A DNA stretch of 45,256 nt from an uncultured Flavobacteriales bacterium (GCA_964003875.1 CAXFLH010000001.1:1-45256), one strand, 5' to 3'; counted from the first letter of the stretch, positions 448-28,275 are shown. Notes: generated by a model from the letters alone, not told the origin. A program made the numbers and translations.

Positions 448-2028
448 CTAAAAATCGTAGTAAAAATTCTGCAAATCGGTTTTAAAGGAAAAGAAAAGAT
501 ACTGATTTTCATCAGTGGTATTTCTATCACTTAACGACCTATTAGTAAGACCTAACTCTATTCTCATATTAGTTTTTGGATTGACAATATAACCAACTCT
601 AAAGTCTATGATTTGTAAATTAGAAGTGTTTCCTTGGCCAATATCGTTATCAAGCTCTTTATAATTCTCGTCATAAGGCATAAAAATATCACTACCATAA
701 TTTGTAGTATCTCCAGCAATTTCTCCGCCATATTTAGCATGTATCAATTTTAAATCCGCTGTCCATCTATCTTTTCTATAACGAATAAAACTTACATTTT
801 CCAAAAAACTTGTTCCTAAAGGGTGCGCCAGAGGCTGCGCGTAATGAGCATAATTTTGTATAGGGTTAAAGTGAGAATAAGTGAATGGTCTAGCAAAATT
901 AAATTCTGATTGTAGAGTTAGGTTTTCAAACCCAAAGACGTCAAAATATTTCATACCTACTTGTCCTCCATACTTATTACGCCATGCCCCATTTTGAGCT
1001 CTAAAATCACCTATTGCAAACTCATCAAAAATTACTTGTCCATACAAATGAGAAGTAGATGTCAACTTATACTTTAATGACAAACCTAATAATGCGTTAC
1101 CTTGTCTTGAATAGCCAATAGAGTATTCAACAGGTCTATAAAAGATTATAGGGTTCATGTAGTTGATATCAAACACATTGCCCAAACTATCTTCCCCCAA
1201 CATTGTGGATTCGAAAATGCCAACATTCAACCGTTCACCTATATTAACACTTAAGTAATGAATAGCGCTAAATTTTGACTTACTTATATCTTGCGCACCT
1301 ATGTCGAAATTTATATCTTGAAAATAAGAAAATAGATTGACGTACTTAAATTTCCATACATCTGTAGTTATCTTTAAATAAGGATAATTAAATGAGTTAT
1401 CGGAAAGCAACATGGAACGATAACCATCGCCAATAAAATGTTTACCATGACCTAAATGTACGTCAAAGAATTTATTAACACCATAATTTATGTAGCCATT
1501 AGCGTAATAAAAATCCATTACACCCTCATTTGTAAAGGGAAAATACTTTATAATACCCTGACCAGGCAAAACATAATTATTATCTTTTGCATAATTCTCC
1601 ACATAATCTGAAACTACCATTTGATTTTCATAGAAAGATGAATAAAAAGATAACTTTTCACCGATCCTACCTTTTACCTCAAACCCTCTTGTATTTACAT
1701 ATCTTTTTTTGTTATCTTCAGCTATCTCAAAATGAAAAAGAGGATTTAAAGCAAAACTATAATCTGCATGCTCAATACTGAGTAAATCGGAGTTAAGAAA
1801 ATTGTGAATGAATGACTTTTTTGAAACAATTGGCTTAAAAGAATTGTAAAATATGGTGTCATCAGAAGAATATAAAAAAGGCTTAAATGAGGTGTGTTTT
1901 GAAACGCCTATATCATGCATATCCTTTTCTAAATACGAATAATAAGAATGACTTATAGGTGCATTGGTCTGCCCTATCAATATTAGTGAGAATTGTGATA
2001 ACACAAAAATTAATACGTATTTCTTCAT
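448..2028 (-). CDS. Secreted outer-membrane beta-barrel protein, possibly a Wzi/RemB-like capsule-assembly protein
   Basis: 526-aa ORF with signal peptide MKKYVLIFVLSQFSLILIGQ. Y/G/N/F-rich alternating beta-strand pattern throughout, with terminal aromatic residue (...LQNFYYDF) typical of OM barrels. It lies directly downstream of the glycan locus. The Wzi/RemB assignment is a recollection of such barrels beside Bacteroidota polysaccharide loci, not an alignment. Confidence 0.6.
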   Translation of the reverse strand: MKKYVLIFVLSQFSLILIGQTNAPISHSYYSYLEKDMHDIGVSKHTSFKPFLYSSDDTIFYNSFKPIVSKKSFIHNFLNSDLLSIEHADYSFALNPLFHFEIAEDNKKRYVNTRGFEVKGRIGEKLSFYSSFYENQMVVSDYVENYAKDNNYVLPGQGIIKYFPFTNEGVMDFYYANGYINYGVNKFFDVHLGHGKHFIGDGYRSMLLSDNSFNYPYLKITTDVWKFKYVNLFSYFQDINFDIGAQDISKSKFSAIHYLSVNIGERLNVGIFESTMLGEDSLGNVFDINYMNPIIFYRPVEYSIGYSRQGNALLGLSLKYKLTSTSHLYGQVIFDEFAIGDFRAQNGAWRNKYGGQVGMKYFDVFGFENLTLQSEFNFARPFTYSHFNPIQNYAHYAQPLAHPLGTSFLENVSFIRYRKDRWTADLKLIHAKYGGEIAGDTTNYGSDIFMPYDENYKELDNDIGQGNTSNLQIIDFRVGYIVNPKTNMRIELGLTNRSLSDRNTTDENQYLFFSFKTDLQNFYYDF

Positions 2029-2094: not shown

Positions 2095-3216
2095 TCAAAG
2101 AGTTTTTATTAGCTCAACATAGCCCTCAGCAATAGAATCCCAACAATAGTTTTCTTTCATATTACTAATAGCATTTTGAGGTATTTCATTCATTAACTCC
2201 TTATTATTCATCAAAATATTCAACTTGTTTGCCAAATCGTCTGCATTACCTTTTTCAAAAAGCAAACCGTTTTTTCCATCTTCAATAACTTCTTCAAAAG
2301 AAGGTATTTGTGAAGCTACCACTGGCAAACCATAAGACATTGACATCAATAAAACACCACTTTGAAAAATGAGTTCATAGGGTAAGACTAAACAATCGGC
2401 CGCCTTGAAATAGAATTCTCTTTTTTCTTCGCTGATATAATCAATATCTAAAACTAATCTGCTTGATAAATCCAATTCATCGATAATAGATTGGTACTTG
2501 TTAAAGTCATCTTTTCCTGAATGACCAGCAATAATAAGGTGTATTGAGGAATCAACATTAGGCATCGCTCTAAGCATAAGGTCTAAACGTTTATTGGGCT
2601 TTAAACGCCCAAAAAATAAAATGTATTGCCTTTGCTCGTCCAAATTCAAAGCTTTTCTAGCCAACTTTCTGCTTATTGAATTATCTGGCAAACTAACAAA
2701 TGAGCCGTGTTTTAACACGCTTACTTTGGAATGTATCTTGGACTCAATCTGAGGCAGAAGATGATTTAAAGAAAAACTATTATGTACGATAATTCTATCT
2801 GACCAACGGTTGTATATCAAATTATAATACCACTTGTTGTCTTGATCGGTAAATGAAAAAACATCATGAGATATGGTAATCGTTTTTAGCCTGAACAATT
2901 TGCTAATAGCATAAGTCATTATTGCCATATTGTGTGTAGAAAAAACGTGAATTATAACCGTATTAATTTTGTTCCTTTTACAGTCCATACAAGACTTAAA
3001 CATTCCCTTTATAAAATTTAATATTTGGGGAAATTTATTTTTAAAAAATATTCCGAAAACTGGCTGAGAAACGATATTTTCGGATTTCACATTAAAATTG
3101 GAGTAGATGTAAGTATCAATCCCTAATTTATTCAATGAAGTACACAGAAATGTATCGTAATGATTCATTCCGCTCTTTATTCCTACAGGGTCAATAATAG
3201 CTATTTTATGTTCCAT
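2095..3216 (-). CDS. Glycosyltransferase family 4 (GT-B fold)
   Basis: 373 aa. The C-terminal half carries the GT4 signature: ...ILFFGRLKPNKRLDLML... and ADCLVLPYELIFQSGVLLMSMSYGLPVVASQIPSFEEVIEDGKNGLLF (E-x7-E region). Overlaps the upstream sulfotransferase gene by 16 nt. Confidence 0.85.
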   Translation of the reverse strand: MEHKIAIIDPVGIKSGMNHYDTFLCTSLNKLGIDTYIYSNFNVKSENIVSQPVFGIFFKNKFPQILNFIKGMFKSCMDCKRNKINTVIIHVFSTHNMAIMTYAISKLFRLKTITISHDVFSFTDQDNKWYYNLIYNRWSDRIIVHNSFSLNHLLPQIESKIHSKVSVLKHGSFVSLPDNSISRKLARKALNLDEQRQYILFFGRLKPNKRLDLMLRAMPNVDSSIHLIIAGHSGKDDFNKYQSIIDELDLSSRLVLDIDYISEEKREFYFKAADCLVLPYELIFQSGVLLMSMSYGLPVVASQIPSFEEVIEDGKNGLLFEKGNADDLANKLNILMNNKELMNEIPQNAISNMKENYCWDSIAEGYVELIKTL

Positions 3217-4049
3217 CTATCTAAATCTGTATTTAATAGTTTTTCAAGCTGAAAAACATCGGACTTGTAAAATGCTTTCAACTGTTCCTCTGTATGCTTA
3301 GAAAGTATCGGCTTGGACTTAGCTGAAAAATACTTGGACCTAATTAATGACAAAAGACGTTCAGGCATAATAGTTTTTACTACTTTTCTTATAATGTTGA
3401 ATTTATACAATTTAGAAACCAAAGTGTAAGAAGGAGATAAAAAAGGGTTTTTAATGCTAAAGTTAATCTCCTGTTGTTCGATTTCTAAAAAACTAAAAAC
3501 ACGATTCATCACTTTTTCAGTATAAATCTTGAAATCTTCATAAAAAATAACCAATAGCTGTTCTTTTCCAAAGACATCTAAATACCTTTTCAATTGCGAA
3601 TAATAATTGCCTAACTCTAAGTATTGTTGAAAATATTGCGGATAGATTTGTGGATTAGCTATAATATCTTCTAATTTTTCTGAGCAAAAACCCAAACGAC
3701 AATCCATCAAATAATGAGAAAATGCACGTTCAATAGGCTCTCTAAGCATAATGATAATTTTAGCTTCAGAGTTGTAATCATATATACGCTTAGGCACGTT
3801 TTCATAATACAAATAAGATACACTAGCTTCTCCTCTAATTTGTCTTTTTTCTTTGGAAAATAATTTGTGATAGTCATTGCTATCAATAATACATTTGGAA
3901 TTATAGAACAAAGATTCTACTTCTTTTGAGGAAAAAAAGTTAGGCTCTTTTACACTACTCATACTCACATCAGTATGCTGATTGAGATAATGGTGCAAGG
4001 AAGTGGTTCCTGCTTTTGGGGCGCCTACAATAAATGTATTTACTTTCAT
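3201..4049 (-). CDS. PAPS-dependent sulfotransferase (paralogue A)
   Basis: 282 aa with no signal peptide. 5'-phosphosulfate loop FIVGAPKAGTTSLHHYL and 3'-phosphate block IIMLREPIERAFSHY, as in Sulfotransfer_1-type enzymes. Confidence 0.85.
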   Translation of the reverse strand: MKVNTFIVGAPKAGTTSLHHYLNQHTDVSMSSVKEPNFFSSKEVESLFYNSKCIIDSNDYHKLFSKEKRQIRGEASVSYLYYENVPKRIYDYNSEAKIIIMLREPIERAFSHYLMDCRLGFCSEKLEDIIANPQIYPQYFQQYLELGNYYSQLKRYLDVFGKEQLLVIFYEDFKIYTEKVMNRVFSFLEIEQQEINFSIKNPFLSPSYTLVSKLYKFNIIRKVVKTIMPERLLSLIRSKYFSAKSKPILSKHTEEQLKAFYKSDVFQLEKLLNTDLDRWNIK

Positions 4050-4051
4050 TA

Positions 4052-4954
4052 TTACATTTTAAATCCTTTAAAATAGGACGTTTGTATAAGGTAAAAGATA
4101 CGCCATTTTTTTTCAAACCTATGACTTATAAAAAAACGAATGGTCAAATAAAACCACAAATAAATTAAATTGATATATGCAATTAGTGTTTTTTGTTTTC
4201 TTAAAAAATAGACGTGATTTTTACTATTCTGCTTTATAAAGAACTCTCCATATTTCATGGGTTTATCTTTATTTCTAGAATTGGTAAGACTACCTATTTT
4301 GTGTAAAAAATGAATGTCATGCCTGTATCTAGCTTCGTGTTTTCCATCTTTTAAAACTCGAAAGAAAAAGTCAGTATCATCAAAATACACAAAAAACTTC
4401 TCGTCCATCAAACCAATATCTTCAAAAACAGACTGATGTATTAAGGCACAACATGTTGGTGCATATTCTATCTTATCGTCAACATTGTATTGGTTGTTAT
4501 CAATCTCTCCTTGCCCGCGATGAAAATTTAAAAATGCTTTTTTCCTGCTGTAAAAGCCTCCAGCATACCAAATCATATTGGATGGAGAAAAATAATTCAT
4601 CTTGGGGACTACTATTGATGAGCCATAACTGTTGTAGGTTTGTACTAGTTTTGACAACAATTTAGCTTCAAAAACAGTATCGTTGTTTAACAACAAGACA
4701 AAATAACAACCGTCTTTAAGCGCTAACTTGATACCTTGATTATTTCCTGCCGCAACACCTAAGTTATTGGTGTTTTTTAAAAGTACTTTAGATTTAAAGT
4801 CCCAATTGTCAACTTTTGAAAGTGTATCGTCAACAGAGTTGTTATCGATGATATAAAGATTGAAATCTGAGTAATCTTGTTGCTCAATAGAAGTGAAAAA
4901 ATCATCTAATACAGAAGCACTATTAAAAGTGACTGTTACAATACCTATCTTCAT
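4052..4954 (-). CDS. Glycosyltransferase family 2 (GT-A fold, rhamnosyltransferase-like)
   Basis: 300 aa. IGIVTVTFNS...YIIDNNSVDDT...VLLLNNDT...FFVYFDDTDFFFR are classic GT2 motifs. C-terminal hydrophobic segment. ATGA-type 4-nt overlap with the upstream gene. Confidence 0.85.
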   Translation of the reverse strand: MKIGIVTVTFNSASVLDDFFTSIEQQDYSDFNLYIIDNNSVDDTLSKVDNWDFKSKVLLKNTNNLGVAAGNNQGIKLALKDGCYFVLLLNNDTVFEAKLLSKLVQTYNSYGSSIVVPKMNYFSPSNMIWYAGGFYSRKKAFLNFHRGQGEIDNNQYNVDDKIEYAPTCCALIHQSVFEDIGLMDEKFFVYFDDTDFFFRVLKDGKHEARYRHDIHFLHKIGSLTNSRNKDKPMKYGEFFIKQNSKNHVYFLRKQKTLIAYINLIYLWFYLTIRFFISHRFEKKWRIFYLIQTSYFKGFKM

Positions 4955-6084
4955 TTCATTAGCCCTTTATCTTTCATTTCATTTATGGACTGCTCATAAT
5001 TATCAGAATTGACTTCTTGCTTTTTAACCCATTCTACAAATTGCTTTAGTCCATCTTCAAATGACACTTTTGGACTGAATCCTAAGAGTTTTTTTATTCT
5101 GCTAATGTCAGCTTTATTGTGTCGAATATCGCCTAGCCTATAATTTCCTGAAACGTTAATATCCACATCAGATTGATATAGTTTTTTTAGACTATCTGCA
5201 ACCATTTGAACCGTAGTCGAAACTCCTGAACCCACATTCAATGAACAGGATTTTAATGTATCATCTTGTATAGCCAATACAGTCGCATTTACAACATCGT
5301 CGATAAATACAAAGTCACGACTTTCCTTGCCATCTTCAAAAATATTTATGTGGTTGTTATTCAATATGCGAGTAGAAAAAATGGATAAAATTCCAGTATA
5401 AGGATTACTTAATGACTGCCCTGGACCATAGACATTTTGATATCTCAAAGCAATAGCGGAGATGCCTAAACTTTTACAAGCCACAAGAATCATTTGCTCT
5501 TGATCACTTTTAGTAATTCCATATATAGAAGACGGATGAATCTTTGAATCTTCATCAGTTTCTAACATGGTCAAAGGTTGTTTACAAATACTGCATAATG
5601 GCTCAAATTGCCCGTTTGATATTTGAGTAACTTCTCTTTCATTAGGATATACCTCACCATGCGATTCACAATGGTATTTCCCTTCACCATATATTGCTCG
5701 TGATGAAGCAACAATTACTTTCTTAACAGTATGTTTCTCATTGGCTAATAAATCTAACATTACGGCAGTCCCCCCACAATTCACTTGAACATATTTCTCA
5801 ATTTGATACATAGACTGACCTGTACCAGTTTCTGCTGCCAAGTGTACAATAACAGTACTATTGGCTATAGCCTTTTGCCAATCTTTTCTATTTCTTATAT
5901 CTCCGTTTATTAAAGTAACTTTACCTTTAATGGACTGATATAACTGAGAATTTTCTTTGGAATTGGTATGAATCTGAGGCGAAAGATTATCTAATACCCT
6001 TACATTGTGTCCAAGACTAACAAGCTTCAATGCTAAATTAGAGCCAATAAATCCTGCTCCTCCAGAAATTAATATATTTTCCAT
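4951..6084 (-). CDS. NAD-dependent sugar-nucleotide epimerase/dehydratase (extended SDR) with a Cys/His-containing insertion
   Basis: 377 aa. Rossmann motif GGAGFIGSNL, catalytic Ser region VIVASSRAIYG and YGITK (YxxxK). About 45 extra residues (135-180) lie between Ser and YxxxK and contain HCESH and CSIC. Confidence 0.85.
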   Translation of the reverse strand: MENILISGGAGFIGSNLALKLVSLGHNVRVLDNLSPQIHTNSKENSQLYQSIKGKVTLINGDIRNRKDWQKAIANSTVIVHLAAETGTGQSMYQIEKYVQVNCGGTAVMLDLLANEKHTVKKVIVASSRAIYGEGKYHCESHGEVYPNEREVTQISNGQFEPLCSICKQPLTMLETDEDSKIHPSSIYGITKSDQEQMILVACKSLGISAIALRYQNVYGPGQSLSNPYTGILSIFSTRILNNNHINIFEDGKESRDFVFIDDVVNATVLAIQDDTLKSCSLNVGSGVSTTVQMVADSLKKLYQSDVDINVSGNYRLGDIRHNKADISRIKKLLGFSPKVSFEDGLKQFVEWVKKQEVNSDNYEQSINEMKDKGLMK

Positions 6085-7316
6085 CTAAACTTGTCGATTA
6101 TATAAATACCACCCGACATTACAAAAGTAAGAAAAAAAGGTCTGAGCATAATTGGTTCTGTCATTAACGAAATAATAATGAAAATGAAAAACCATTTACG
6201 CTTTTCAGGAACAAAGTTCTGATGGTATAACATCACAACCAAAATCAGAGTAAATGGTATTCCTGCAGCAGCTAAGAAAAACATAATAGAGTTAGTCGAG
6301 CCCTTGTCGTTTACATTTGAAAAATCAACAGCCTCTAAGTTTAATGAAAATCTAGTCTTTTGGCGAGTTTTAACAAATTGTTCATCGTCCAAACCAACAC
6401 CAGTAATAGGGTTTTCGGCAACCATATATATGGGTTGAACTAAATCAAAAAATCGAGCTTGAAAAGAAAATCGTCCATCACCATTAAGTTTGTCAGAAAT
6501 ATTAATAGCTGTAATGTAATAAACTAATAAAATAATTAATGCTGCTATGGGCAAAAACAAAATATTTTTTCTTATCTCGGAACTAAATGACAATAGAAGT
6601 TGGACAAACATTACGACTAATCCAGTTGTTGAAAATGTTGTAAAAATAGCTAGAATAGTCAACCAAAATATCAAACCTCTTTTCTTTTTAACAAAAGAGA
6701 TGATAAAGAGCAATAGATTAAGAAAAATCTGAAGGACACCAGGTTCCCAAAAAATACCTTGATTTCTAACAAGCTCAATACCCAATACAGAAAATGAATG
6801 CGTATACTTTAGATAAAAGAAAACGTTTAGAAAACTAACGCAGTCATAACGACCATTACTAATATTAATTAAAAAAGGTTTTACAAAAGGAAAAATAAAG
6901 AAGTTAATCAGGGCGTGAATTAAAATTATTTTTAAAATCAAATAAAGATGAGGAATAAATAGATTTTTATTTTCTTCTCTATAATAATACATTGCTGAAA
7001 AAATAGAGGTAGTGAAAATAACAATATTAGCCAATAACTTTTGTGTTGATTGAGGTGATAATGCAAATAAATAGTTGAAAGTAAGTAAGGACAAAAACAA
7101 TACCAAAAGCTGCACAAAAATTAGAAGTTCTCTTTTGTAAAGATTTTTAATGACAAAAAGAGATGAGAATAGAAAAAACACAAAATAAAGCATCTCCTTT
7201 CTAAAAAATATGAAGACCATACTACCTGCAGTTAGTACCAAAAAAAGCATCGGCAACCATGAAAATTTGAGATGTTTTGACGCTAATTTCATGACTGATC
7301 TTTGGTCCTTTCCCAA
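6069..7316 (-). CDS. Wzy-like O-antigen/EPS polymerase (O-antigen ligase superfamily membrane protein)
   Basis: 415-aa F/I/L-rich polytopic ORF. A large late loop ...DKLNGDGRFSFQARFFDLVQPIYMVAENPITGVGLDDEQF... resembles the Wzy_C loop. Located between the flippase and the GTs. ATG at 7292 gives an ATGA stop/start overlap with the upstream acetyltransferase gene and may be the true start. Confidence 0.7.
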   Translation of the reverse strand: MGKDQRSVMKLASKHLKFSWLPMLFLVLTAGSMVFIFFRKEMLYFVFFLFSSLFVIKNLYKRELLIFVQLLVLFLSLLTFNYLFALSPQSTQKLLANIVIFTTSIFSAMYYYREENKNLFIPHLYLILKIILIHALINFFIFPFVKPFLINISNGRYDCVSFLNVFFYLKYTHSFSVLGIELVRNQGIFWEPGVLQIFLNLLLFIISFVKKKRGLIFWLTILAIFTTFSTTGLVVMFVQLLLSFSSEIRKNILFLPIAALIILLVYYITAINISDKLNGDGRFSFQARFFDLVQPIYMVAENPITGVGLDDEQFVKTRQKTRFSLNLEAVDFSNVNDKGSTNSIMFFLAAAGIPFTLILVVMLYHQNFVPEKRKWFFIFIIISLMTEPIMLRPFFLTFVMSGGIYIIDKFRWKIY

Positions 7317-7888
7317 CTTTGTTTAGCGTGGTTGTATGTCTTTATAATGCGAGCAGGTGAGCCCGCTACCATACAATAGTCAGGCACATCATGAATAACT
7401 AAAGAATTTGCTCCTACAATACACTGTTTACCTATCTTAGATGAAATGACACAAACATTTTCTCCAAGCCATGTGCCATCACCAATTTCAACTTCCGCCT
7501 TAAAACCTACTCCTTGCTCTTTGTAGGGCAAATCAACTTTATCAAAACGATGAAAATTATCAGCGATATATACGTTATCGCCCATCAATACATTCTTGCC
7601 AATTCGTATACTTTTCAAAGAAACGATATGAGCATTTCTTCCAATATAAGTGCCTTCATCTATAGAAAGTTTAGTGTCTTTAGAAGTTGAATCGGAATAG
7701 TTTAATGCCAAAAGCCAAGCGTTAGGTTTAATAAAAACTTCTTTTTTGATAGCAATATATCTTGCACCTTCAACAGAAAATGGCATAGATAGTGTTGATT
7801 TAGGTGCTAATTCCTTGAACGAAAAACGATAAAGTAAAGTAAAAATCTTATCCCTTATTCTGCGATATGTATTATGAATTTGTTCCAT
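7289..7888 (-). CDS. Hexapeptide-repeat (left-handed beta-helix) sugar O-acetyltransferase
   Basis: 199 aa. Imperfect hexapeptide repeats ...IGRNAHIVSLKSIRIGKNVLMGDNVYIAD... and ...IGDGTWLGENVCVISSKIGKQCIVGANSLVIHDVPDYCMVAGSPARI, as in WcaF/LacA/NodL-type enzymes. Confidence 0.8.
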   Translation of the reverse strand: MEQIHNTYRRIRDKIFTLLYRFSFKELAPKSTLSMPFSVEGARYIAIKKEVFIKPNAWLLALNYSDSTSKDTKLSIDEGTYIGRNAHIVSLKSIRIGKNVLMGDNVYIADNFHRFDKVDLPYKEQGVGFKAEVEIGDGTWLGENVCVISSKIGKQCIVGANSLVIHDVPDYCMVAGSPARIIKTYNHAKQSWERTKDQS

Positions 7889-8801
7889 TATTTAACCAGC
7901 CTATATTATACTCAGGCAAGATTTTTTTTAACTGAGCAATATCTTCTACAAAATAGGATTCTAAATTGGATTTCAAAGATTCATTTAAAGAAATTTTTGA
8001 CTTAGATAAATTTTTACGCATAATCAACTCTCTAATTAACTTAGTTTTTTGCTCTCCAATAGTGTTGTGAAGTATCTTTTTAATAAGACTAAATTTGGAA
8101 GATGATTGAAGAATTGCGTTTAATTTTTTACTCTTTGGCGCACCCGTACTTTTTTTATTTATCATAAAATGCGACACCTTAAAGCTACTATCAACTTCTA
8201 AAAAATCGAAAATATCAACTAATGATTTATCAATATCGTTTACAAAATCTTCAAAAAAAACAACTTTTACTTCCTTAAATGCATCTTTATAAGCTTTTAC
8301 CGATTCAGCATATGTGCTTAAGCCTTTATAGTGCCAAAAGGAATTAAACCCTTTTGAAATTCGTTCTGACTCTTGCTCAAGTGCATGCTTAAAGTCCAAG
8401 TTTTCATAGGTTGAATAATTATGAGAATAATTTGAAAATGCTCTCTCAATAGGGTTTCTTAAAAGAATTAAAATTTTTGGTGACTTACCATCTTTCAGTT
8501 GTTTAATTTTAGGAATTACTTCATGATGATGGTATAAATATTGTGTGCTCGCGTCACACTTTATTTTTTCACTTTTATTGGCATAAAGATTGGTATAATT
8601 AAGTTCATCAAGCACTGAACTTCTCAATAAATAGGGTTTAATAGGATCAGCTTCAGAAATGTTTTGAATACTGTCTTTTATAAAAAACCGTGGCTCTTTA
8701 TCAGGAATCGCTATATCTGGATGTTGACTAAGATAATGGTACAAAGAAGTCGTGCCTGCCTTCGGTGCTCCTACGATATATAAGTTAGGATAATTCATCA
8801 T
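7872..8801 (-). CDS. PAPS-dependent sulfotransferase (paralogue B)
   Basis: 309 aa. 5'-PSB loop LYIVGAPKAGTTSLYHYL and 3'-PB block ILLRNPIERAFSNYSH. The same motif order as the 3201-4049 product, but otherwise strongly diverged. Confidence 0.85.
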   Translation of the reverse strand: MMNYPNLYIVGAPKAGTTSLYHYLSQHPDIAIPDKEPRFFIKDSIQNISEADPIKPYLLRSSVLDELNYTNLYANKSEKIKCDASTQYLYHHHEVIPKIKQLKDGKSPKILILLRNPIERAFSNYSHNYSTYENLDFKHALEQESERISKGFNSFWHYKGLSTYAESVKAYKDAFKEVKVVFFEDFVNDIDKSLVDIFDFLEVDSSFKVSHFMINKKSTGAPKSKKLNAILQSSSKFSLIKKILHNTIGEQKTKLIRELIMRKNLSKSKISLNESLKSNLESYFVEDIAQLKKILPEYNIGWLNNGTNS

Positions 8802-10132
8802 CTAATACCTGGGAAATAAATTGAATAAAACCCAAAGTTTTTCTTGATGTAAACTATCATAAGAACATTCCATATCACTCCACTAATAGCGCTAGCAAAA
8901 GCTGCTCCATCAATACCATATTTTGGAATTAAAATATAGTTTAAACCGATATTGATTAGAGCTGTAAGGATTAGTATATTCTGAAACACATTTTGTTTGC
9001 CGACCATTTGTAAAAATGTACCTACAGAGCCGGAAATTGCACTGAACATTTTACTTATTGATAAGATAATTAACGCCATAGCTGCTAACTTAAATTCTTC
9101 TCCAAATACACTTAAAATAGATTTAGGAAAGCATAAAAATAATATTATTACTGGAAAAGTAACCCAAAATATGGTTTTAGTTGATTGTTGTACTATTTTT
9201 TTAAGAGCCTCAATATCTCCAGAAGAATGAATTTCTGAAAATTTGGGTGCGGCTATACTATTGACTGCCATAAGACCCATATATGCTAACATAGATAATT
9301 TTAAGGCAATATTATAAATCCCTACTAGGTCTGAAGAGGTCATATTTGCTAACATAAACAAATCTACTTTTCCCATTATCAGCATCATTGACTGACCTAA
9401 CAACAATGGAATAGACACCTTAAAAAGTGCTTTTGTACTGAGTTCTTTCTCGCTATTGCTGTGCTGAGAATTAATCAATTTAGTTTTGTGATAATACCAT
9501 AAAAAATAAGATGAAAATGTCATAATAATAACACTCAACACATAGGCGTAAATAGGAAGTTTTTCTGAGAAGGTATACGAAGTAAATACCACCATAATAA
9601 TGAAAGTAATTAGGGTAATTGCAACATTATTCAAAAAAGAAAAAGAAAGCATTTGCTTCAACCCTCGAATAGCCTGAACATTCATATGAAACAATACTAA
9701 TGGAATGAAGGAGAAGGATACGATTAAAAGATACTCCTCGTCAAGATTCATAAAATTAGCTATGTAGGCAGAAAAAAACAATAATAGTAAGGTGAAAATA
9801 ATAGCAGCTAAAGTGACAATAGCTATTGATTTAAAAAAAAGTTTATTAATTAATTGAGGGACTCCATTGTGCACGTATCTTGAGATAAATCGAACTAAAG
9901 CGGTGTCTATGCCTAACCTTGAAATGATACTTAAAATTTCAACAATTAATAAAGCTGTTACATACTGACCAAATACAAAAGCTCCAAATTTATTAGTAAT
10001 GAAAATAGCAAGAACATACCCAACTAGTATGCCAACAATTTTCAAGATAAAAGTGCTAGACGCTCCCTTGATAAGCTCAATAAAATGAACATCACCTGAG
10101 TACTTTGATAGATATGATTTTATTTTGTTCAA
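8798..10132 (-). CDS. wzx: Wzx-type oligosaccharide flippase (MOP superfamily polysaccharide biosynthesis protein)
   Basis: 444 aa with roughly 12-14 hydrophobic helices along the whole length. First gene of the overlapping glycan string, with a 4-nt overlap to the next gene. Confidence 0.75.
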   Translation of the reverse strand: MNKIKSYLSKYSGDVHFIELIKGASSTFILKIVGILVGYVLAIFITNKFGAFVFGQYVTALLIVEILSIISRLGIDTALVRFISRYVHNGVPQLINKLFFKSIAIVTLAAIIFTLLLLFFSAYIANFMNLDEEYLLIVSFSFIPLVLFHMNVQAIRGLKQMLSFSFLNNVAITLITFIIMVVFTSYTFSEKLPIYAYVLSVIIMTFSSYFLWYYHKTKLINSQHSNSEKELSTKALFKVSIPLLLGQSMMLIMGKVDLFMLANMTSSDLVGIYNIALKLSMLAYMGLMAVNSIAAPKFSEIHSSGDIEALKKIVQQSTKTIFWVTFPVIILFLCFPKSILSVFGEEFKLAAMALIILSISKMFSAISGSVGTFLQMVGKQNVFQNILILTALINIGLNYILIPKYGIDGAAFASAISGVIWNVLMIVYIKKNFGFYSIYFPGIR

Positions 10133-10137
10133 TAATT

Positions 10138-10887
10138 CTAATAGTTTGAATCGGATTCTTTGCCATGTAAAATAGAAACTGCAGAAGATGTTCCAATACG
10201 TTTTACACCCAAATCTACCATTGTCTTAAAATCTTCAATGTTACGAATTCCTCCGGAAGCTTTTACTGGCAAAGGTGACGAATTATCTAACATTAGTTTT
10301 ATAGCTGACACAGTTGCTCCGTTTGGTGCTGAGTCAGGGCTAAAATAAAAGCCTGTCGATGATTTTACAAATACATTATGAGCATTATTTTGACCAAAAT
10401 TATCTATAACAACATCTCTAATGAGCTGACAAATATCAATTATCTCATTATCACTTAATGCCGCTGATTCTATTATCCATTTAATAGTCTTATTATTGGA
10501 CAAACACAGAGCTGTACATGCTTTAACTTGATTGTCAATGTAATCGCTACCCCCTTTTTTGAAAAGCTCATAGTTAATAACAACATCAATATCGTCAGCA
10601 CCTAAATTGATAGCATTACTAATCTCATCTAATTTGTTTTCTGTCGATGAGCTTCCATTAGGAAAATCAATAACAGTTCCAACTAAAACATTACTACCTT
10701 TGTCGGCTATTATTTCTTTTGCTAAAGCAACATGATTTGAACGAATCATTACCAATTTGAAATTATGCTCAACAGCCTCTAAGACAAAAGATTTAACAAC
10801 TTGTTTTTCTTCTTGGTCACTTAGACCTGATTGTTCTTTTGTTTTAAGATATGTGGAATCAAAAAAACTAGTCATATTAAAGTTCAT
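10138..10887 (-). CDS. deoC: Deoxyribose-phosphate aldolase
   Basis: DeoC class I aldolase blocks ...LVGTVIDFPNGSSS..., ...GADDIDVVINY..., Schiff-base Lys block LPVKASGGIRN and ...KRIGTSS. Start placed at ATG 10887 (MNFNMTSFF...) because the longer track ORF (to 10959) runs into the terminator hairpin at 10946-10973. Only 5 nt separate its stop from the wzx start. Confidence 0.85.
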   Translation of the reverse strand: MNFNMTSFFDSTYLKTKEQSGLSDQEEKQVVKSFVLEAVEHNFKLVMIRSNHVALAKEIIADKGSNVLVGTVIDFPNGSSSTENKLDEISNAINLGADDIDVVINYELFKKGGSDYIDNQVKACTALCLSNNKTIKWIIESAALSDNEIIDICQLIRDVVIDNFGQNNAHNVFVKSSTGFYFSPDSAPNGATVSAIKLMLDNSSPLPVKASGGIRNIEDFKTMVDLGVKRIGTSSAVSILHGKESDSNY

Positions 10888-10945
10888 ATTGAGTCTTGTT
10901 TGGGTCAGTAAAAATAACGATTTTAAGCTAGAAAATTCATCATTA

Positions 10946-10973
10946 AAAAGGCCCTCCAAACAGAGAGCCTTTT
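10946..10973 (-). terminator. Rho-independent terminator downstream of the tonB-like gene
   Basis: The minus strand reads AAAAGGCTCTC-tgtttg-GAGGGCCTTTT followed by TAAT. This is an 11-bp stem with one mismatch and a T run, 20 nt after the tonB-like stop. Confidence 0.7.
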
Positions 10974-10992: not shown

Positions 10993-11664
10993 TTAATTCA
11001 ATTTAAAGCTTATGGGTACGTTATATTGCACCTTTACAGGTTTACCTCTTTGTTTGCCAGGCTTAAATTTTGGTAAACTTGAAACTACTCGAACAGCTTC
11101 AGCATCTAAATATTTATCTACTCCACGTAAAATCTTAACATTAGTAACTTTACCTGTTTTATCTACAACAAAACTCACAAAAACTCTACCAGTAATATTA
11201 TTCTCCTTAGCAATTGGTGGATACTTTGTTTTTCTAGCGATAAACTGCATTATCTTGGTTTGGGTACAAGTTTCATCAGCACACCCTTCAAAGCGAGGCA
11301 TATCTTCAACAACCATAAATATTTCATCAGTTGTTTCTTCTTCCTCTTCTATTACTTCAAGATCCTCGTCAGATTCTGTATCTTCTATTTCTACCTCTTC
11401 TATTTCCTCATCGTCTTCAACAATAACGATTTCATCTGGTGGAGGTGGAGGTGGTGGAGGTGGCTTTTGCTCTCTAAATGTATTTTCTATCTCTTCCTCA
11501 AACTCTGCATCTAATACTAAATCACCTAGTGAAGCAACAACTTTTTCGTACGTTCTGTATTCAAAAGCGCCTAAAACAATCAATAGAGATACTGCTAAGC
11601 CGATTTGCATAAACAAACCTCTTTTTTTCTCTAAATCTACTTTTGGGTTTTTTTTTGGTTCCAT
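10993..11664 (-). CDS. TonB-family energy transducer
   Basis: 223 aa. Basic N-terminus plus a single TM (GLFMQIGLAVSLLIVLGAF), a Pro9 run and long Asp/Glu linker, and a C-terminal TonB fold ...YPPIAKENNITGRVFVSFVVDKTGKVTNVKILRGV...AVRVVSSLPKFKPGKQRGKPVKVQYNVPISF. Confidence 0.85.
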   Translation of the reverse strand: MEPKKNPKVDLEKKRGLFMQIGLAVSLLIVLGAFEYRTYEKVVASLGDLVLDAEFEEEIENTFREQKPPPPPPPPPDEIVIVEDDEEIEEVEIEDTESDEDLEVIEEEEETTDEIFMVVEDMPRFEGCADETCTQTKIMQFIARKTKYPPIAKENNITGRVFVSFVVDKTGKVTNVKILRGVDKYLDAEAVRVVSSLPKFKPGKQRGKPVKVQYNVPISFKLN

Positions 11665-11682
11665 AAAATTGGGTTACTTGAG

Positions 11683-11690
11683 CAAATTTA
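11683..11690 (-). promoter_or_regulatory. Candidate -7 box (TAAATTTG) for the tonB-like gene
   Basis: The minus strand reads TAAATTTG (TAnnTTTG), 18 nt upstream of ATG 11664. It overlaps the vanZ-like stop codon. Motif match only. Confidence 0.35.
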
Positions 11691-12065
11691 ATCTTTTTTA
11701 ACTGAATTCATTGATACGGGAAAGGGAAATTTCTTAAAAATCCAAACACCTAAAAATATACCTATGGTGTCTGCTAACCAATCTAAGATATCAGCACTCC
11801 TTTCAACAAAAATAAGGCCTTGAAGCACTTCTAACAATAAGCCATAAGCAAGAAATGAAATAACTATGTAACGTAAAAATTGATTTTTCTGTTGTTCCTT
11901 CAATGCTACAGCAAACAAATAAACCCCAATCATAAATATGATGATATGTATCAATTTATCTAATTGAAAAAAGTCAGAAAAAGAAACTTCTAGAAAATCA
12001 GAACCAGGCATAGCATGTAAAATTGCAATGACAACAACCCACACTATTGCAATAGTATAGCGCAT
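11688..12065 (-). CDS. VanZ-like small membrane protein
   Basis: 125 aa with 4 hydrophobic helices, ...DKLIHIIIF... and ...ERSADILDWLADTIG..., typical of the VanZ family. Its start abuts the gcvH stop. Confidence 0.7.
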   Translation of the reverse strand: MRYTIAIVWVVVIAILHAMPGSDFLEVSFSDFFQLDKLIHIIIFMIGVYLFAVALKEQQKNQFLRYIVISFLAYGLLLEVLQGLIFVERSADILDWLADTIGIFLGVWIFKKFPFPVSMNSVKKD

Positions 12066-12497: not shown

Positions 12498-15400
12498 CTA
12501 TTGTGCTAATGTGAATCTAACACTAAATCCACCATTTGTAATAGCTGAAGGGAAGGTATTCGAAACATAAGGATTTGTCATTACCTTATCATAGAATAGT
12601 CGTAGGTTAAATCGACTACTAACAACATAGTCAGCCGTAAACTTCAAGGTAATTACACTATTTCCACCTGTTATTTCTTCTTGATTTTCTTCTATTTTTC
12701 TAATTACGACCTTATTACTTCTAAGTGAAAAATCTAATTTTAAATCTAAATCTGAGCTTATTTTTCTTTGTCTACCTGCTGCTCTTACGTTAAAGGCTAA
12801 TTCTTTTATTCTGTACCCTGTACCTATAATCCATTCATCAGAAGAACGGTCCGTGAGTTGGTTATTACTTAAGCCTAAACTTAAAGTTCGTTCTTTCTTA
12901 ATTTCTAGACGAGCTGTCATACTATTTTTGAAAGTCAAATCTATCTTAAACAGGGGGTTCAGAGTTTCTCGTAATGTTACTTGATTAATTTCGTACTTAT
13001 CATAATAGTTTAAGGTAGCCTCATTAATCGCATTGGGCCATTCATCAAAACCAGCCTCATAGTCTAGACTAGTCACATAATTACCTACACTATAAGTTGA
13101 TTGATAAGAGTGGCTTAATACTATGTTATTCATTCTTTTTTTTATCCATTTAAGATTACGCAAACCATCAAAATTAATTCGCCAATTTGGTAAAGGGATA
13201 TTTGGGAAATTATTGAGCCCTACCGAAGAAGCGTTTTTTCCTGAATAAGCTGCTAAAAAGGCAGGTATCAATACCTCTTGAGAAGTGCTTTGATAACCTA
13301 ACGGATATCCAGTACTATCCACAATACTGTTGTCGTATGGATTTGAGTCAGCAAGTCTGTTGGCTATTATTTCTCTATTTTGTCTAAACTGCTGAAAGGT
13401 AGCATTTGAATAATTATCATCGTCTTTAATAAAAGCAGAATTCCAACTAATAAATGAGATGCTGTGACTACCATTTTCGATACTATTAAATGAATCGTAG
13501 TCGCCTAAGTCCGAATCAAATCTATAGATTTCTTGAACGTTATTTGTTTTTGTTCTATTAGCAGTTAGCTCTATTCTAAATCCTTTAAAAGGCTCAAGAG
13601 TTCCTCTCAGGTTGAGAGTTTCGCTATTGGTCAGTTTAAAAAATTGATTCAAATTTGTGCTAGAAGTGAGCCAACCTCCTTGTGAACTTAGCTCTCTAAT
13701 GTCAATATTTTGACTTCCCAAAGCAAAAGGTATACCGGGAGCCATAGCATCCCAATCTTGACCGAAGAAATGAGGCTTTTTATTAAAACCTGGCAAGACA
13801 ACGCCCTGATTTTGTCGGTAAGAAATCGATAAGTTTTTGACTAATAAAGTTGTTTTTAAAAGAGTATTTGCAATCTCTTTAAATGAAACTTTTACAGTAT
13901 CCGAGGCTTGATTTGGCAGTCGAATAGTTTCTCTGCTTGAACCTCTACCTCTTACGCCTACACTAGGACCAGTTCGATTTAACTTTTTAAGGAAAGGTAC
14001 TTTATTGTATAGCTGACCAAAATTGAATGTTGAGTTGATTTGTTTGTTATTGCTATTTTGAATGGTATTGCCCAAACTTTGTAAACTTAATGGTGCTGCT
14101 AACCAATCGTAATTGGCTACATATTTAGTATTCAGATTTATCCAAGAAGTTAGAGGGAATTTATTCAAAGGTACATTATAACTCGCATTTAATGAATGAT
14201 GATATAAAGTCGGTCTTCCAAAATTTAGAATATTGTTCCATATGGAGTCTTTCTTTTCTTGATAATATGAATCTGATTTTACTAACTCACCATCTGGCTC
14301 GTCAATACTAGCTGAATTACGAACCTTAAATTCTGTTTTCAGTGTACGTGTTAAATCATATTTAATGCTATAATTTCTGTTCCAAACAAATGCCTTGTTG
14401 TAATATGGTGGTAAAGTAAAATCAGGGTTATTGATGTTTCTAAATTGTGTTTTATTATAATACCTATCCAAGTCTGTCTGAAATGATATTGATTTTGGTA
14501 AGGTGTAAAAGTTAAAGTCTTTCAATAGTGCAAAATACTTGTTCTTAAATAGCTTTACTTTTTGAAATGGCTTTATATTTTTGGGTTTTGAAGAATAGGT
14601 ATAATTGAGAGAGGCTTTTGTGCTAACCGTTGTTCTTTCTTTAAGATTAACATTTCTAGAAAACGTTTCATTTCTAGAGTAGGTTGCTGAAAGGTTTTCT
14701 ATATCATAAATCTTAGCTTTTTTTCCTGAAGAAGAAGATTTGTTTTTTCTAACATTAGTAAAGTTAATTGACTTTCTTTTTGTCAAATCTTGAGCTATCT
14801 CTTTCAGTTCTTCTTTCTCTTCATTGGATTGTAACTCATCTAAAGATGCTTTTAAAGTGATGTCCGGATCTAGAGGATTATATTGTGGGTTTTGAATAGC
14901 TTCAGAAACACCGACATACATAGGTATTTTTATAGCCGCTTTTTCTCCAAAGAAATTTCCTAAAGCAAAAGTTGACGAAAAATCGTATTGGTAGGCATCA
15001 TACTTTTGTCTTGCTGTTAGACTTTGGTCAATGGAGCCAAAGCCGATAGTGCTCATACTTCCTGTAAGATTAACATTGGCAAAATCAGCCAACCTAGCAT
15101 TAATACGACCATTGGCGGCATAACCTCCTCGTTCGTCAAAGTCAGTTAGACGTAATTCGTTTAACCAAATCTCTCCACATTTGGAAGTTCCGTCATCATT
15201 GATAGTGGAGTTAAAATCACCTTTTCTTGGATTTCTTACTCCCAACATGATGGTTTTTACCATACTAATATTAGGGTTACCAACAACAGTAATTTGCTTG
15301 TCTGTTCCTGAAAAAGGATCGGTGCTACTGTTGTGTATTCCGTCCCTTATAGCTTTGTTTCTTTCTTGTTTGGCATCGAGTAGTTGTTCGAAAGTAATAT

Positions 15401-27471: not shown

Positions 27472-27473
27472 TT

Positions 27474-28262: not shown

Positions 28263-28275
28263 TCACCCAAGTACA

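What the first reader, a model, noticed from the sequence alone, without database searches (positions are those of the whole stretch)
2095..10132. Wzx/Wzy-type glycan locus encoding two sulfotransferases: predicted sulfated, acetylated surface polysaccharide
Seen: nine co-directional genes are linked by overlaps of 4-28 nt: wzx, sulfotransferase B, LbH acetyltransferase, Wzy-like polymerase, SDR epimerase, GT2, sulfotransferase A, GT4. Both sulfotransferases have intact 5'-PSB (GAPKAGTTSL) and 3'-PB (R-x-P-I-E-R-A-F-S) motifs and no signal peptide, so sulfation would occur on the cytoplasmic, lipid-linked repeat unit before flipping. Established: PAPS-dependent glycan sulfation is well known in animals but documented in only a few bacterial systems, such as rhizobial NodH/LpsS and mycobacterial Stf enzymes. 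With only two GTs, and with no initiating phosphoglycosyltransferase, Wza/Wzc or PAPS-synthesis (cysDNC) genes in the window, the locus is either a compact module relying on genes elsewhere or part of a larger split locus.
Basis: partly seen in the sequence, partly recalled or inferred. Interest (0 to 1): 0.62.

Follow-up and report, generated by a model that had tools for sequence, protein, structure and literature searches.

The report
Conserved sulfated surface-glycan operon
An uncultured ocean flavobacterium carries a tightly packed eight-gene operon, shared with dozens of related species, that most likely builds a short cell-surface sugar unit bearing two sulfates and an acetyl group. It is a sound but unsurprising new example of a system known from cyanobacteria and a few marine bacteria, and it is still unknown where this lineage gets its sulfate donor.

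Summary
Window 2095-10132 (minus strand) has eight, not nine, coupled genes: wzx, sulfotransferase B, LbH acetyltransferase, Wzy_C protein, GalE-like epimerase, GT2, sulfotransferase A and GT4. Both sulfotransferases are intact PAPS-type enzymes close to heparan-sulfate 3-OST/NDST. They are under purifying selection, and metatranscriptome contigs cover the locus.

The locus is not a variable serotype island. The same genes sit at the same site (SprA-GcvH-VanZ-TonB-deoC | locus | 18-strand barrel-UbiA-COX) in about 40 uncultured marine Flavobacteriales species. In every sister lineage with enough flank, cysQ is fused in front of wzx. Where the flank reaches far enough, cysC (with cysD-cysN in several) lies divergently beside deoC. 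Most also carry a WecA-like initiator. This supports PAPS-dependent sulfation of an undecaprenyl-linked repeat unit.

The window's own clade (11 of 11 loci) has lost or moved that PAPS module and the initiator.

Wzx/Wzy clusters with sulfotransferases are already published (synechan, Vibrio, Cobetia). This is a new member of a known kind, of moderate interest.

The parts
10138..10959 (-). deoC-type aldolase, the first co-directional gene, 5 nt upstream of wzx; probably the head of the operon
   Evidence: TIGR00126 deoC scores 153 bits against a cutoff of 117. It holds the same position in nearly all syntenic loci. In L064 it is translationally coupled to cysQ-wzx. A hairpin plus T-run lies between TonB and deoC (by eye).
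8798..10132 (-). Wzx/MOP-family flippase
   Evidence: PF01943 79 bits, PF13440 and MatE; orthologues in all syntenic loci.
7872..8801 (-). Sulfotransferase B (309 aa), PAPS-type, cytoplasmic
   Evidence: PF00685 E=3e-13. PDB 3RNL E=1e-37, then HS 3-OST-3 and NDST. 5'-PSB and 3'-PB motifs are intact. dN/dS is 0.07-0.12.
7289..7888 (-). Left-handed beta-helix O-acetyltransferase (WbbJ/WcaF-like)
   Evidence: Hexapep. The best NCBIfam hit is WbbJ at 98.6 bits, below its cutoff.
6069..7316 (-). Wzy_C-domain multi-pass membrane protein: polymerase, or a ligase/O-OTase. The likely start is the ATG at 7292 (407 aa).
   Evidence: PF04932 38.5 bits against a cutoff of 31.7. A 23-sequence profile hits only WaaL 7TPG, at E=0.36. 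The 407-aa start is the one called on other contigs.
4951..6084 (-). Extended-SDR nucleotide-sugar 4-epimerase-like enzyme with a 40-aa CxxH...CxxC insert
   Evidence: PF01370 162 bits. The best PDB hits are GalE 4ZRM (E=5e-41), WbgU and WbpP. The match is split around residues 136-175.
4052..4954 (-). GT2 glycosyltransferase
   Evidence: PF00535 76 bits. The best hit is the rhamnosyltransferase subfamily TIGR01556, below cutoff.
3201..4049 (-). Sulfotransferase A (282 aa), PAPS-type, cytoplasmic; the most widely conserved gene of the locus
   Evidence: PF00685 E=1e-19. 3RNL E=5.5e-38, HS 3-OST-5 E=4e-9. K12, G14, T15, S17, E35, R103 and S111 are invariant in 20 orthologues down to 49% identity. 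dN/dS is 0.13-0.18.
2095..3216 (-). GT4 glycosyltransferase
   Evidence: PF00534 99.8 bits.
448..2028 (-). Conserved 526-aa outer-membrane beta-barrel (signal peptide, C-terminal YYDF), 66 nt downstream of GT4; candidate outer-membrane partner of the glycan
   Evidence: No Pfam, NCBIfam or PDB sequence hit. The AF2 model (pLDDT 64, pTM 0.68) is a barrel of about 18 strands. Foldseek hits are OccD2, AlgE and Wzi 2YNK; Wzi has the best TM-scores among the hits, 0.51/0.59. The gene follows the locus in most lineages and overlaps the WecA-like gene by 4 nt in L011.

Best explanation
The stretch is the core of a vertically inherited operon, probably deoC-wzx-STB-LbH-wzy-SDR-GT2-STA-GT4 with the barrel gene following. 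The inferred pathway is as follows.
1. A phosphoglycosyltransferase encoded elsewhere starts the unit on undecaprenyl phosphate. It is WecA-like in relatives.
2. GT2 and GT4 add two sugars. One is probably supplied by the GalE-like 4-epimerase.
3. The two cytoplasmic PAPS-dependent sulfotransferases each add one sulfate at a different position, and the LbH enzyme adds an O-acetyl group.
4. Wzx flips the decorated unit.
5. The Wzy_C protein polymerises it in the periplasm, and it ends on the cell surface. This resembles an O-antigen or enterobacterial-common-antigen type of glycan. The adjacent AlgE/Wzi-like barrel may take part.

Shown here: the gene identities, intact catalytic motifs, purifying selection, clade-wide synteny, and the linkage of the same operon to cysC (with cysD/cysN in several lineages), cysQ and a WecA-like gene in sister lineages.

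Inferred: the order of steps, the number of sugars, polymerisation, surface location, and that this lineage obtains PAPS from genes elsewhere in its genome.
For: - Family assignments pass curated thresholds.
- Both sulfotransferases align full-length to bacterial sulfotransferase 3RNL (E about 1e-37) and then to HS 3-OST/NDST, with the PSB lysine, the 3'-PB Arg/Ser and the K-E-P-x-F-F glutamate conserved.
- Translational coupling: overlaps of 4-17 nt.
- The identical eight genes in the same order occur in 11 loci of the window's clade.
- Sister lineages L064/L025 have the same eight genes plus cysQ overlapping wzx and a divergent cysC-cysD-cysN. These are confirmed above NCBIfam cutoffs: CysQ 280 bits against 228.8, CysC 247 against 138.7, CysD 454 against 195.
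- 28 of 28 other syntenic Flavobacteriales loci with a full upstream flank carry cysQ, and most carry a WecA-like Glycos_transf_4 gene.
- dN/dS is 0.07-0.18 for both sulfotransferases within the cys-less clade.
- Metatranscriptome contigs at 93-95% identity tile the locus. One is a 2.1-kb contig spanning Wzy-LbH-STB-wzx.
- PMC11641403 states that PAPS genes plus sulfotransferases in a polysaccharide cluster are a hallmark of sulfated polysaccharide synthesis. PMC8205485 shows a Wzx/Wzy cluster with two sulfotransferases making a polymer with two sulfates per unit.
Against: - No PAPS-synthesis gene, cysQ or initiating transferase lies in the 45-kb window or in the 10-kb flanks of any of the 11 loci of this clade.
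- Two CysC searches found no adenylyl-sulfate kinase on this clade's long contigs (774, 641, 630, 544 and 441 kb) by contig-length matching. That test is weak: only the top 120 hits are listed, and a length filter excludes fused CysNC.
- The Wzy_C protein cannot be distinguished from a ligase.
- No Wzz, Wza or Wzc appears in any annotated locus.
- There is no chemistry for any member of this clade.
- Metatranscriptome contigs can contain DNA carry-over.
Confidence: 0.65

Rival explanations
1. The same lipid-linked, doubly sulfated, acetylated unit is made and flipped but not polymerised. The Wzy_C protein acts as a WaaL-type ligase or a PglL-type O-oligosaccharyltransferase. The product is then a short sulfated oligosaccharide on lipid A-core (LOS-like) or on many surface proteins, as in the general O-glycosylation of Bacteroidota.
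For: - Pfam Wzy_C covers ligases and PglL O-OTases as well as polymerases (PMC3643930). The only PDB sequence hit of the 23-sequence profile is WaaL 7TPG, and it is weak (E=0.36).
- No chain-length regulator appears in any locus.
- The locus is conserved rather than hypervariable, which fits a core glycan.
- There are only two GTs.
Against: - Nothing positively identifies ligase or OTase motifs.
- Wzx plus a single Wzy_C gene inside the locus is the classical polymerase arrangement.
- ECA shows that a conserved Wzx/Wzy polymer locus exists.
Confidence: 0.2
2. In this clade the sulfation arm is dead or repurposed. With cysC-cysD-cysN and cysQ lost from the locus, the cell makes no PAPS. The operon then yields an unsulfated, acetylated glycan, and the sulfotransferase-fold proteins serve another role or another donor.
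For: - All 11 loci of the clade lack the linked PAPS module that every sister lineage has.
- No CysC could be tied to the clade's long contigs.
Against: - Both sulfotransferases keep every PAPS-binding and catalytic residue across 55-94% identity.
- They evolve under dN/dS 0.07-0.18, like their neighbours.
- The CysC test could not see divergent or fused kinases.
- Dedicated second copies of cys genes are dispensable when housekeeping copies exist. PMC11641403 describes the Vibrio cluster genes as second copies.
Confidence: 0.07
3. The sulfotransferases act on a non-glycan acceptor (a lipid, sterol-like molecule or small metabolite) and are only neighbours of the glycan genes.
For: Bacteroidota sulfotransferases acting on sterols are known (own knowledge; see also PMC13696130 listed). 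Acceptor specificity cannot be read from sequence.
Against: - Each gene is translationally coupled between glycan genes (wzx/LbH and GT2/GT4).
- This interleaving is conserved across about 40 species.
- The closest characterised relatives are carbohydrate sulfotransferases.
Confidence: 0.03

Closest known systems
Synechan (xss) cluster of Synechocystis sp. PCC 6803 (PMC8205485)
   Same: A Wzx/Wzy-dependent pathway with two sulfotransferase genes of distinct subfamilies inside the cluster. Two sulfates per repeat unit are shown chemically. The outer-membrane component is encoded apart from the core.
   Different: Synechan has eight GTs (an octasaccharide unit), a PCP/OPX export pair, a plasmid location and a dedicated regulator set. 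Here there are two GTs, no PCP/OPX, an acetyltransferase, and a fixed chromosomal site conserved across an order-level clade.
Sulfated capsule clusters of Vibrio sp. KMM 8419 and Cobetia marina KMM 1449 (PMC11641403, PMC11766843)
   Same: Sulfotransferases embedded in a surface-glycan cluster. cysNDC (and cysQ in Cobetia) are linked to the cluster, as in this locus's sister lineages. The Vibrio paper also predicts a Wzx-dependent sulfated O-antigen.
   Different: Those capsules use ABC (Kps) export in 70-80-gene regions and vary between strains. This locus is Wzx-dependent and compact, and in the window's clade it lacks the PAPS genes.
Enterobacterial common antigen (wec/rff) locus (own knowledge)
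   Same: A conserved, non-serotype, Wzx/Wzy-dependent surface glycan with a trisaccharide-size unit and an acetyl modification. It is initiated by WecA and kept at one chromosomal site across an order.
   Different: ECA is not sulfated and its locus contains wecA and wzzE. There is no sequence orthology beyond the generic families.
PDB 3RNL sulfotransferase (Alicyclobacillus acidocaldarius) and animal heparan-sulfate 3-OST/NDST sulfotransferase domains
   Same: Full-length sequence similarity to 3RNL (E about 1e-37). The 5'-PSB, 3'-PB and K-E-x-x-F-F catalytic-base region are shared with 3-OST-5, 3-OST-3 and NDST1.
   Different: 3RNL has no known substrate. The animal enzymes are Golgi-lumenal and act on finished polymer chains. 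These enzymes are cytoplasmic and presumably act on a lipid-linked unit. Identity to the HS enzymes is low.
Rhizobial NodH/NoeE/LpsS and mycobacterial Stf sulfotransferases
   Same: Bacterial PAPS-dependent carbohydrate sulfation.
   Different: Those act on Nod factors, LPS or glycolipids outside a Wzx/Wzy operon. The only match is a weak N-terminal hit of ST-B to NoeE (19.6 bits against a cutoff of 500).

Membership tests
PAPS-dependent sulfotransferase, Sulfotransfer_1 (PF00685), HS 3-OST/NST-like branch | Profile match above the curated threshold | tested here: met
   ST-A 71.1 bits and ST-B 50.2 bits against a gathering score of 22.
PAPS-dependent sulfotransferase, Sulfotransfer_1 (PF00685), HS 3-OST/NST-like branch | 5'-phosphosulfate-binding loop (PKxGTT/S) with the catalytic lysine | tested here: met
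   GAPKAGTTSL is present in both. K12, G14, T15 and S17 are invariant in 20 ST-A orthologues.
PAPS-dependent sulfotransferase, Sulfotransfer_1 (PF00685), HS 3-OST/NST-like branch | 3'-phosphate-binding Arg...Ser motif | tested here: met
   LRxPIERAFS is present in both. R103 and S111 are invariant.
PAPS-dependent sulfotransferase, Sulfotransfer_1 (PF00685), HS 3-OST/NST-like branch | Catalytic base (Glu of the E-x-H-F-F-D region in 3-OSTs) | tested here: met
   K34-E35-P36-x-F-F aligns with QEIHFFD of 3-OST-5. E35 is invariant. That this Glu is the base in 3-OSTs rests on my own knowledge.
PAPS-dependent sulfotransferase, Sulfotransfer_1 (PF00685), HS 3-OST/NST-like branch | Sulfate transfer from PAPS to a sugar hydroxyl or amine | not testable with these tools
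   Needs an enzyme assay.
Wzx/Wzy-dependent glycan assembly pathway | Wzx (MOP) flippase | tested here: met
   PF01943 79 bits, PF13440 54 bits.
Wzx/Wzy-dependent glycan assembly pathway | Wzy polymerase | tested here: inconclusive
   The Wzy_C domain scores 38.5 bits against 31.7, but the domain is shared with WaaL and PglL. The profile against PDB gave only WaaL, at E=0.36.
Wzx/Wzy-dependent glycan assembly pathway | Initiating phosphoglycosyltransferase (WecA/WbaP type) in the locus | tested here: not met
   None in the scanned ORFs of the window or in 11 loci of the clade. A WecA-like gene (PF00953 151 bits; TIGR02380 153 bits, below its cutoff of 326) closes the syntenic locus in most sister lineages.
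Wzx/Wzy-dependent glycan assembly pathway | Chain-length regulator or export pair (Wzz, Wzc/Wza) | tested here: not met
   No Wzz or Poly_export family in the window or in the annotated loci L001, L002, L009, L011, L013 and L084.
Sulfated-polysaccharide gene cluster as defined in PMC11641403 (PAPS genes plus sulfotransferases in one cluster) | Sulfotransferase genes inside the glycan cluster | tested here: met
   Two, each translationally coupled to glycan genes.
Sulfated-polysaccharide gene cluster as defined in PMC11641403 (PAPS genes plus sulfotransferases in one cluster) | cysC, cysD, cysN (and cysQ) linked to the cluster | tested here: not met
   Absent from the window and from all 11 loci of its clade. 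Among the other syntenic Flavobacteriales loci with enough flank, cysQ is present in 28 of 28, and cysC (with cysD/cysN in several) where the flank reaches it.
Wzi capsule-assembly barrel / AlgE-type exporter (for the 526-aa protein) | Sequence membership (Pfam Caps_assemb_Wzi or Alginate_exp) | tested here: not met
   No Pfam or NCBIfam hit even at E up to 10.
Wzi capsule-assembly barrel / AlgE-type exporter (for the 526-aa protein) | 18-strand barrel fold | tested here: inconclusive
   The model has pLDDT 64. Foldseek E is about 1e-8 to OccD2, AlgE and Wzi, with TM 0.38-0.59 and rmsd about 9 A. This is generic large-barrel similarity.

The most novel reading that the evidence does not exclude
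The locus does not make a strain antigen. It makes a clade-wide 'common antigen': a small, densely anionic (sulfated) glycan that is a core envelope trait of abundant, streamlined pelagic Flavobacteriales. It would be handled by the co-inherited AlgE/Wzi-like barrel. It might serve a housekeeping role comparable to the anionic A-LPS of Porphyromonas that anchors T9SS cargo; the locus lies in a conserved block with sprA. The window's clade would then be a natural experiment in which the dedicated PAPS factory and the initiator were stripped from the operon while sulfation was kept.
Probability: 0.12. Interest if true: 0.7.

Novelty: new member of a known kind. Interest (0 to 1): 0.4.

Why it matters
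Marine Flavobacteriales are studied as consumers of sulfated algal polysaccharides, not as producers of sulfated glycans. A conserved sulfation operon in many uncultured, abundant species suggests they coat themselves with sulfate esters. That would bear on phage and grazer recognition, metal binding, and the pool of sulfated organic matter in seawater. The two compact, soluble sulfotransferases of the HS 3-OST/NDST type are also candidate tools for enzymatic glycan sulfation. The concept itself (sulfotransferases in Wzx/Wzy or capsule clusters, with a linked PAPS supply) is already published for cyanobacteria, Vibrio and Cobetia.

Tried and rejected
2. Tracing CysC in the window's clade by matching 'longest_contig' lengths between the ST-A hits and two CysC searches. 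Matches exist only for the 50-52% sister lineages (109994, 111543, 107171, 71017, 28677, 19132). None exists for the clade's 774, 641, 630, 544 or 441-kb contigs. The result is inconclusive: only the top 120 hits are listed, identity bottoms out near 60%, and the length filter excludes fused CysNC.
3. The lead that CysC P0158 (440,872-bp contig) and ST-A P0043 (441,034-bp contig) lie on the same genome segment. Rejected: P0158 sits in an L011-type locus of another lineage.
4. Looking for single-cell or isolate sequencing runs of this species in order to test for cys genes. Only metagenomes were returned.
5. Sigma-70 promoter and terminator scan. Counts were no better than in shuffled sequence, and the consensus does not suit Bacteroidota.
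6. Telling Wzy from WaaL/PglL by a profile search of PDB. Only one weak WaaL hit came back.
7. Sequence identification of the 526-aa barrel protein. No hit in Pfam, NCBIfam or PDB.
8. The 496-aa 'GT4' on contig L001. It is a 369-nt (CT)n insertion, an assembly artefact and not a variant gene.

Full report
**What is in the sequence.** All genes of the finding lie on the minus strand. Pfam places each above its gathering score:
- wzx 8798-10132 (Polysacc_synt, 79 bits)
- sulfotransferase B 7872-8801 (Sulfotransfer_1, 50 bits)
- a hexapeptide-repeat acetyltransferase 7289-7888
- a Wzy_C-domain membrane protein 6069-7316 (38.5 bits)
- an extended-SDR epimerase 4951-6084 (162 bits)
- a GT2 4052-4954
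- sulfotransferase A 3201-4049 (71 bits)
- a GT4 2095-3216

That is eight genes, not nine. The ninth co-directional gene is deoC (10138-10959; TIGR00126, 153 bits against a cutoff of 117), 5 nt upstream of wzx. With the ATG start that gene callers used on other contigs (Wzy 6069-7292), the junctions are overlaps of 4, 17, 4, 16, 4 and 16 nt plus one 2-nt gap. This is typical translational coupling. The large ORFs scanned in the rest of the 45-kb window are housekeeping: SprA, GcvH, RuvAB, malic enzyme, T9SS cargo, alternative complex III, cytochrome oxidase and IF-2. None is a cysDNC, cysQ, phosphoglycosyltransferase, Wza or Wzc gene. A few ORFs, including 39137-42121, were not scanned.

**The sulfotransferases.**
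- ST-A and ST-B are 31% identical paralogues.
- Both align over their full length to the uncharacterised bacterial sulfotransferase 3RNL (E about 1e-37), and next to heparan-sulfate 3-O-sulfotransferases and the NDST sulfotransferase domain.
- The 5'-PSB loop (GAPKAGTTSL) starts at residue 9-11, so there is no signal peptide or membrane anchor.
- In 20 ST-A orthologues down to 49% identity, the PSB lysine K12, G14, T15, S17, the 3'-PB R103 and S111, and E35 are invariant. E35 aligns with the Glu of the 3-OST E-x-H-F-F-D region.
- Within the window's clade, dN/dS is 0.13-0.18 for ST-A and 0.07-0.12 for ST-B, like the neighbouring genes.
- Contigs from four metatranscriptomes, 93-95% identical to the window, tile the locus. 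One 2.1-kb contig runs across Wzy, LbH, ST-B and the end of wzx. The usual caveat about DNA carry-over applies.

**Where it comes from and how conserved it is.** The proteins are found only in uncultured marine Flavobacteriales. The exact ST-A protein occurs on long-read contigs of 774 and 544 kb with the same gene order. A scan of one genome per GTDB species with an ST-A alignment returned 69 loci, which I mapped by tblastn.

In the window's clade (ST-A at least 55% identical; nine species genomes plus ENA contigs) all 11 loci with full flanks have the same eight genes at the same site: SprA-GcvH-VanZ-TonB-deoC | locus | 526-aa protein-UbiA-COX. So this is not a serotype-like variable island.

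The closest sister lineages (L064, L025; ST-A 50-52%) have exactly the same eight genes. They also have cysQ overlapping the start of wzx, and cysC-cysD-cysN divergently transcribed upstream of deoC. NCBIfam confirms these above curated cutoffs: CysQ 280 bits against 228.8, CysC 247 against 138.7, CysD 454 against 195.

A larger set of about 28 species (ST-A 42-49%) has deoC-cysQ-wzx, two to four sulfotransferases, Wzy, the same SDR, ST-A, GT2 and GT4. Often it also has GDP-mannose dehydratase and a reductase. Most end with a WecA-like Glycos_transf_4 gene that overlaps the 526-aa gene by 4 nt. cysC lies beside deoC where the flank reaches it.

In a quick ML tree of ST-A, the window's clade is monophyletic (SH-aLRT 89). 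It is nested inside a 95%-supported group with the cys-bearing L011 and L064 lineages. That group sits inside a 96%-supported Flavobacteriales clade in which every locus with enough flank has cysQ. One loss or relocation of the linked PAPS module is the simplest history.

**Mechanism.** The operon is physically and translationally tied to PAPS synthesis (CysDN, CysC), PAP removal (CysQ) and an Und-P-dependent WecA-like initiator in its relatives. The sulfotransferases therefore most likely use PAPS on a lipid-linked sugar unit in the cytoplasm, before Wzx flips it.

Two GTs plus the initiator predict a unit of about three sugars. The GalE/WbgU/WbpP-like SDR probably supplies a 4-epimerised hexose or HexNAc. 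Two paralogous sulfotransferases predict two sulfate positions, and the WbbJ/WcaF-like LbH enzyme predicts an O-acetyl group.

What happens after flipping is not settled. The Wzy_C protein may be a polymerase, which is my preferred reading. It may instead be a WaaL/PglL-type ligase; the domain is shared (PMC3643930), and a 23-sequence profile found only WaaL 7TPG at E=0.36. No Wzz, Wza or Wzc is present in any annotated locus.

The 526-aa protein that follows the locus has no sequence-family hit. With a 24-sequence alignment it models as a beta-barrel of about 18 strands (pLDDT 64). That model resembles OccD, the alginate exporter AlgE and the capsule lectin Wzi, and Wzi has the best TM-scores, 0.51/0.59. 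It is a candidate outer-membrane partner, no more than that.

**The open problem.** The window's clade has no linked PAPS genes, no cysQ and no initiator. Two CysC searches tied kinases to ST-A contigs only in the sister lineages. They found none on this clade's long contigs. The lists stop near 60% identity and exclude fused CysNC by length, so this is weak evidence. Purifying selection on both enzymes argues that PAPS is available. In Vibrio the cluster-linked cys genes are described as second copies (PMC11641403), which would make their loss tolerable.

**Comparison with what is known.**
- A Wzx/Wzy cluster with two sulfotransferases producing two sulfates per unit is established for synechan in Synechocystis (PMC8205485).
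- Sulfated capsules with cluster-linked cysNDC (and cysQ in Cobetia) and sulfotransferases are described for Vibrio sp. KMM 8419 and Cobetia marina (PMC11641403, PMC11766843).
- Pontiella also makes sulfated exopolymers (PMC7356697).
- I found no paper describing such a locus in pelagic Flavobacteriales.
- Earlier notes of this scan describe the same locus family in several other genomes.
- In behaviour the locus is closest to the enterobacterial common antigen: a conserved, order-wide, WecA-initiated, acetylated Wzx/Wzy glycan.

**Verdict.** This is a real, expressed, well-conserved operon for a sulfated, acetylated surface glycan. It is a new member of a known kind and of moderate interest. 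The particular twist here is the clade-specific removal of the PAPS module and the initiator from the operon.

Noticed in passing
window 4951-6084 (residues ~136-175 of the SDR): The GalE-like epimerase carries an insert of about 40 aa (YHCESHGEVYP...EPLCSICKQPL) with a CxxH...CxxC pattern, possibly a zinc-binding knuckle. It splits every Pfam and PDB match into two pieces. The insert length is conserved in orthologues (377 aa throughout the clade).
   Followed up: partly
window 10138-10959; L064 2488-3974: A bona fide deoC-type aldolase always heads the operon. In sister lineages it is translationally coupled to cysQ-wzx (1-nt overlap). Why a deoxyribose-phosphate aldolase travels with a sulfated-glycan operon is unexplained.
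   Followed up: partly
L016 (CAJWWC010000005.1) versus the window: Divergence inside the locus is mosaic. wzx, ST-B, LbH and GT2 are 87-89% identical to the window, but Wzy is 74%, SDR 76%, ST-A 65% and GT4 71%. dS is about 0.5 for wzx, ST-B and LbH, and 1.05-3.3 for Wzy, SDR, GT2, ST-A and GT4 (GT2 keeps 87% protein identity at dS 1.05). This suggests recombinational exchange of sub-modules between lineages, a limited form of antigenic variation.
   Followed up: partly
L001 11420-11790: The 774-kb long-read contig of the same species has 369 nt of (CT)n inserted in frame in GT4, giving a 496-aa ORF. The window has no repeat there, so this is almost certainly an assembly artefact.
   Followed up: yes
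L011 11964-13851; L012; L024, L029, L038, L040, L046, L048, L072, L073, L081: Many sister loci add GDP-mannose 4,6-dehydratase (438 bits) and a second reductase/epimerase between GT4 and the WecA-like gene. This predicts a 6-deoxyhexose (fucose or rhamnose type) in their units, together with three to four sulfotransferases.
   Followed up: partly
L042, L056, L067, L068, L069, L070, L077: ST-A homologues at 38-45% identity, next to wzx and GT4 in most of these loci and with cysQ/cysC or cysCDN in some (L042, L067, L077), occur outside Bacteroidota: anammox Planctomycetota, Sulfurovaceae/Sulfurimonadaceae, Desulfocapsaceae and Chlorobiota. The sulfation cassette has spread horizontally.
   Followed up: no
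window 12498-19658, 22603-23313, 23680-25230, 25813-29238: The T9SS translocon SprA (2386 aa) lies four genes upstream of the locus in all syntenic genomes. Two proteins with Por_Secre_tail sorting domains and a DUF6029-Omp28-DUF6588 gene set lie nearby. There is no evidence of a functional link to the glycan.
   Followed up: no
window 11012-11701 (+): A 229-aa ORF antisense to the TonB gene is a low-complexity mirror of its proline/acidic linker (runs of S and G) and is almost certainly not a gene.
   Followed up: no
L084 and L087: Two different lineages give long-read contigs of nearly equal length (440,872 and 441,034 bp), with the locus about 30-50 kb from one end. This suggests that conserved repeats (perhaps rRNA operons) bound a syntenic segment.
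   Followed up: no
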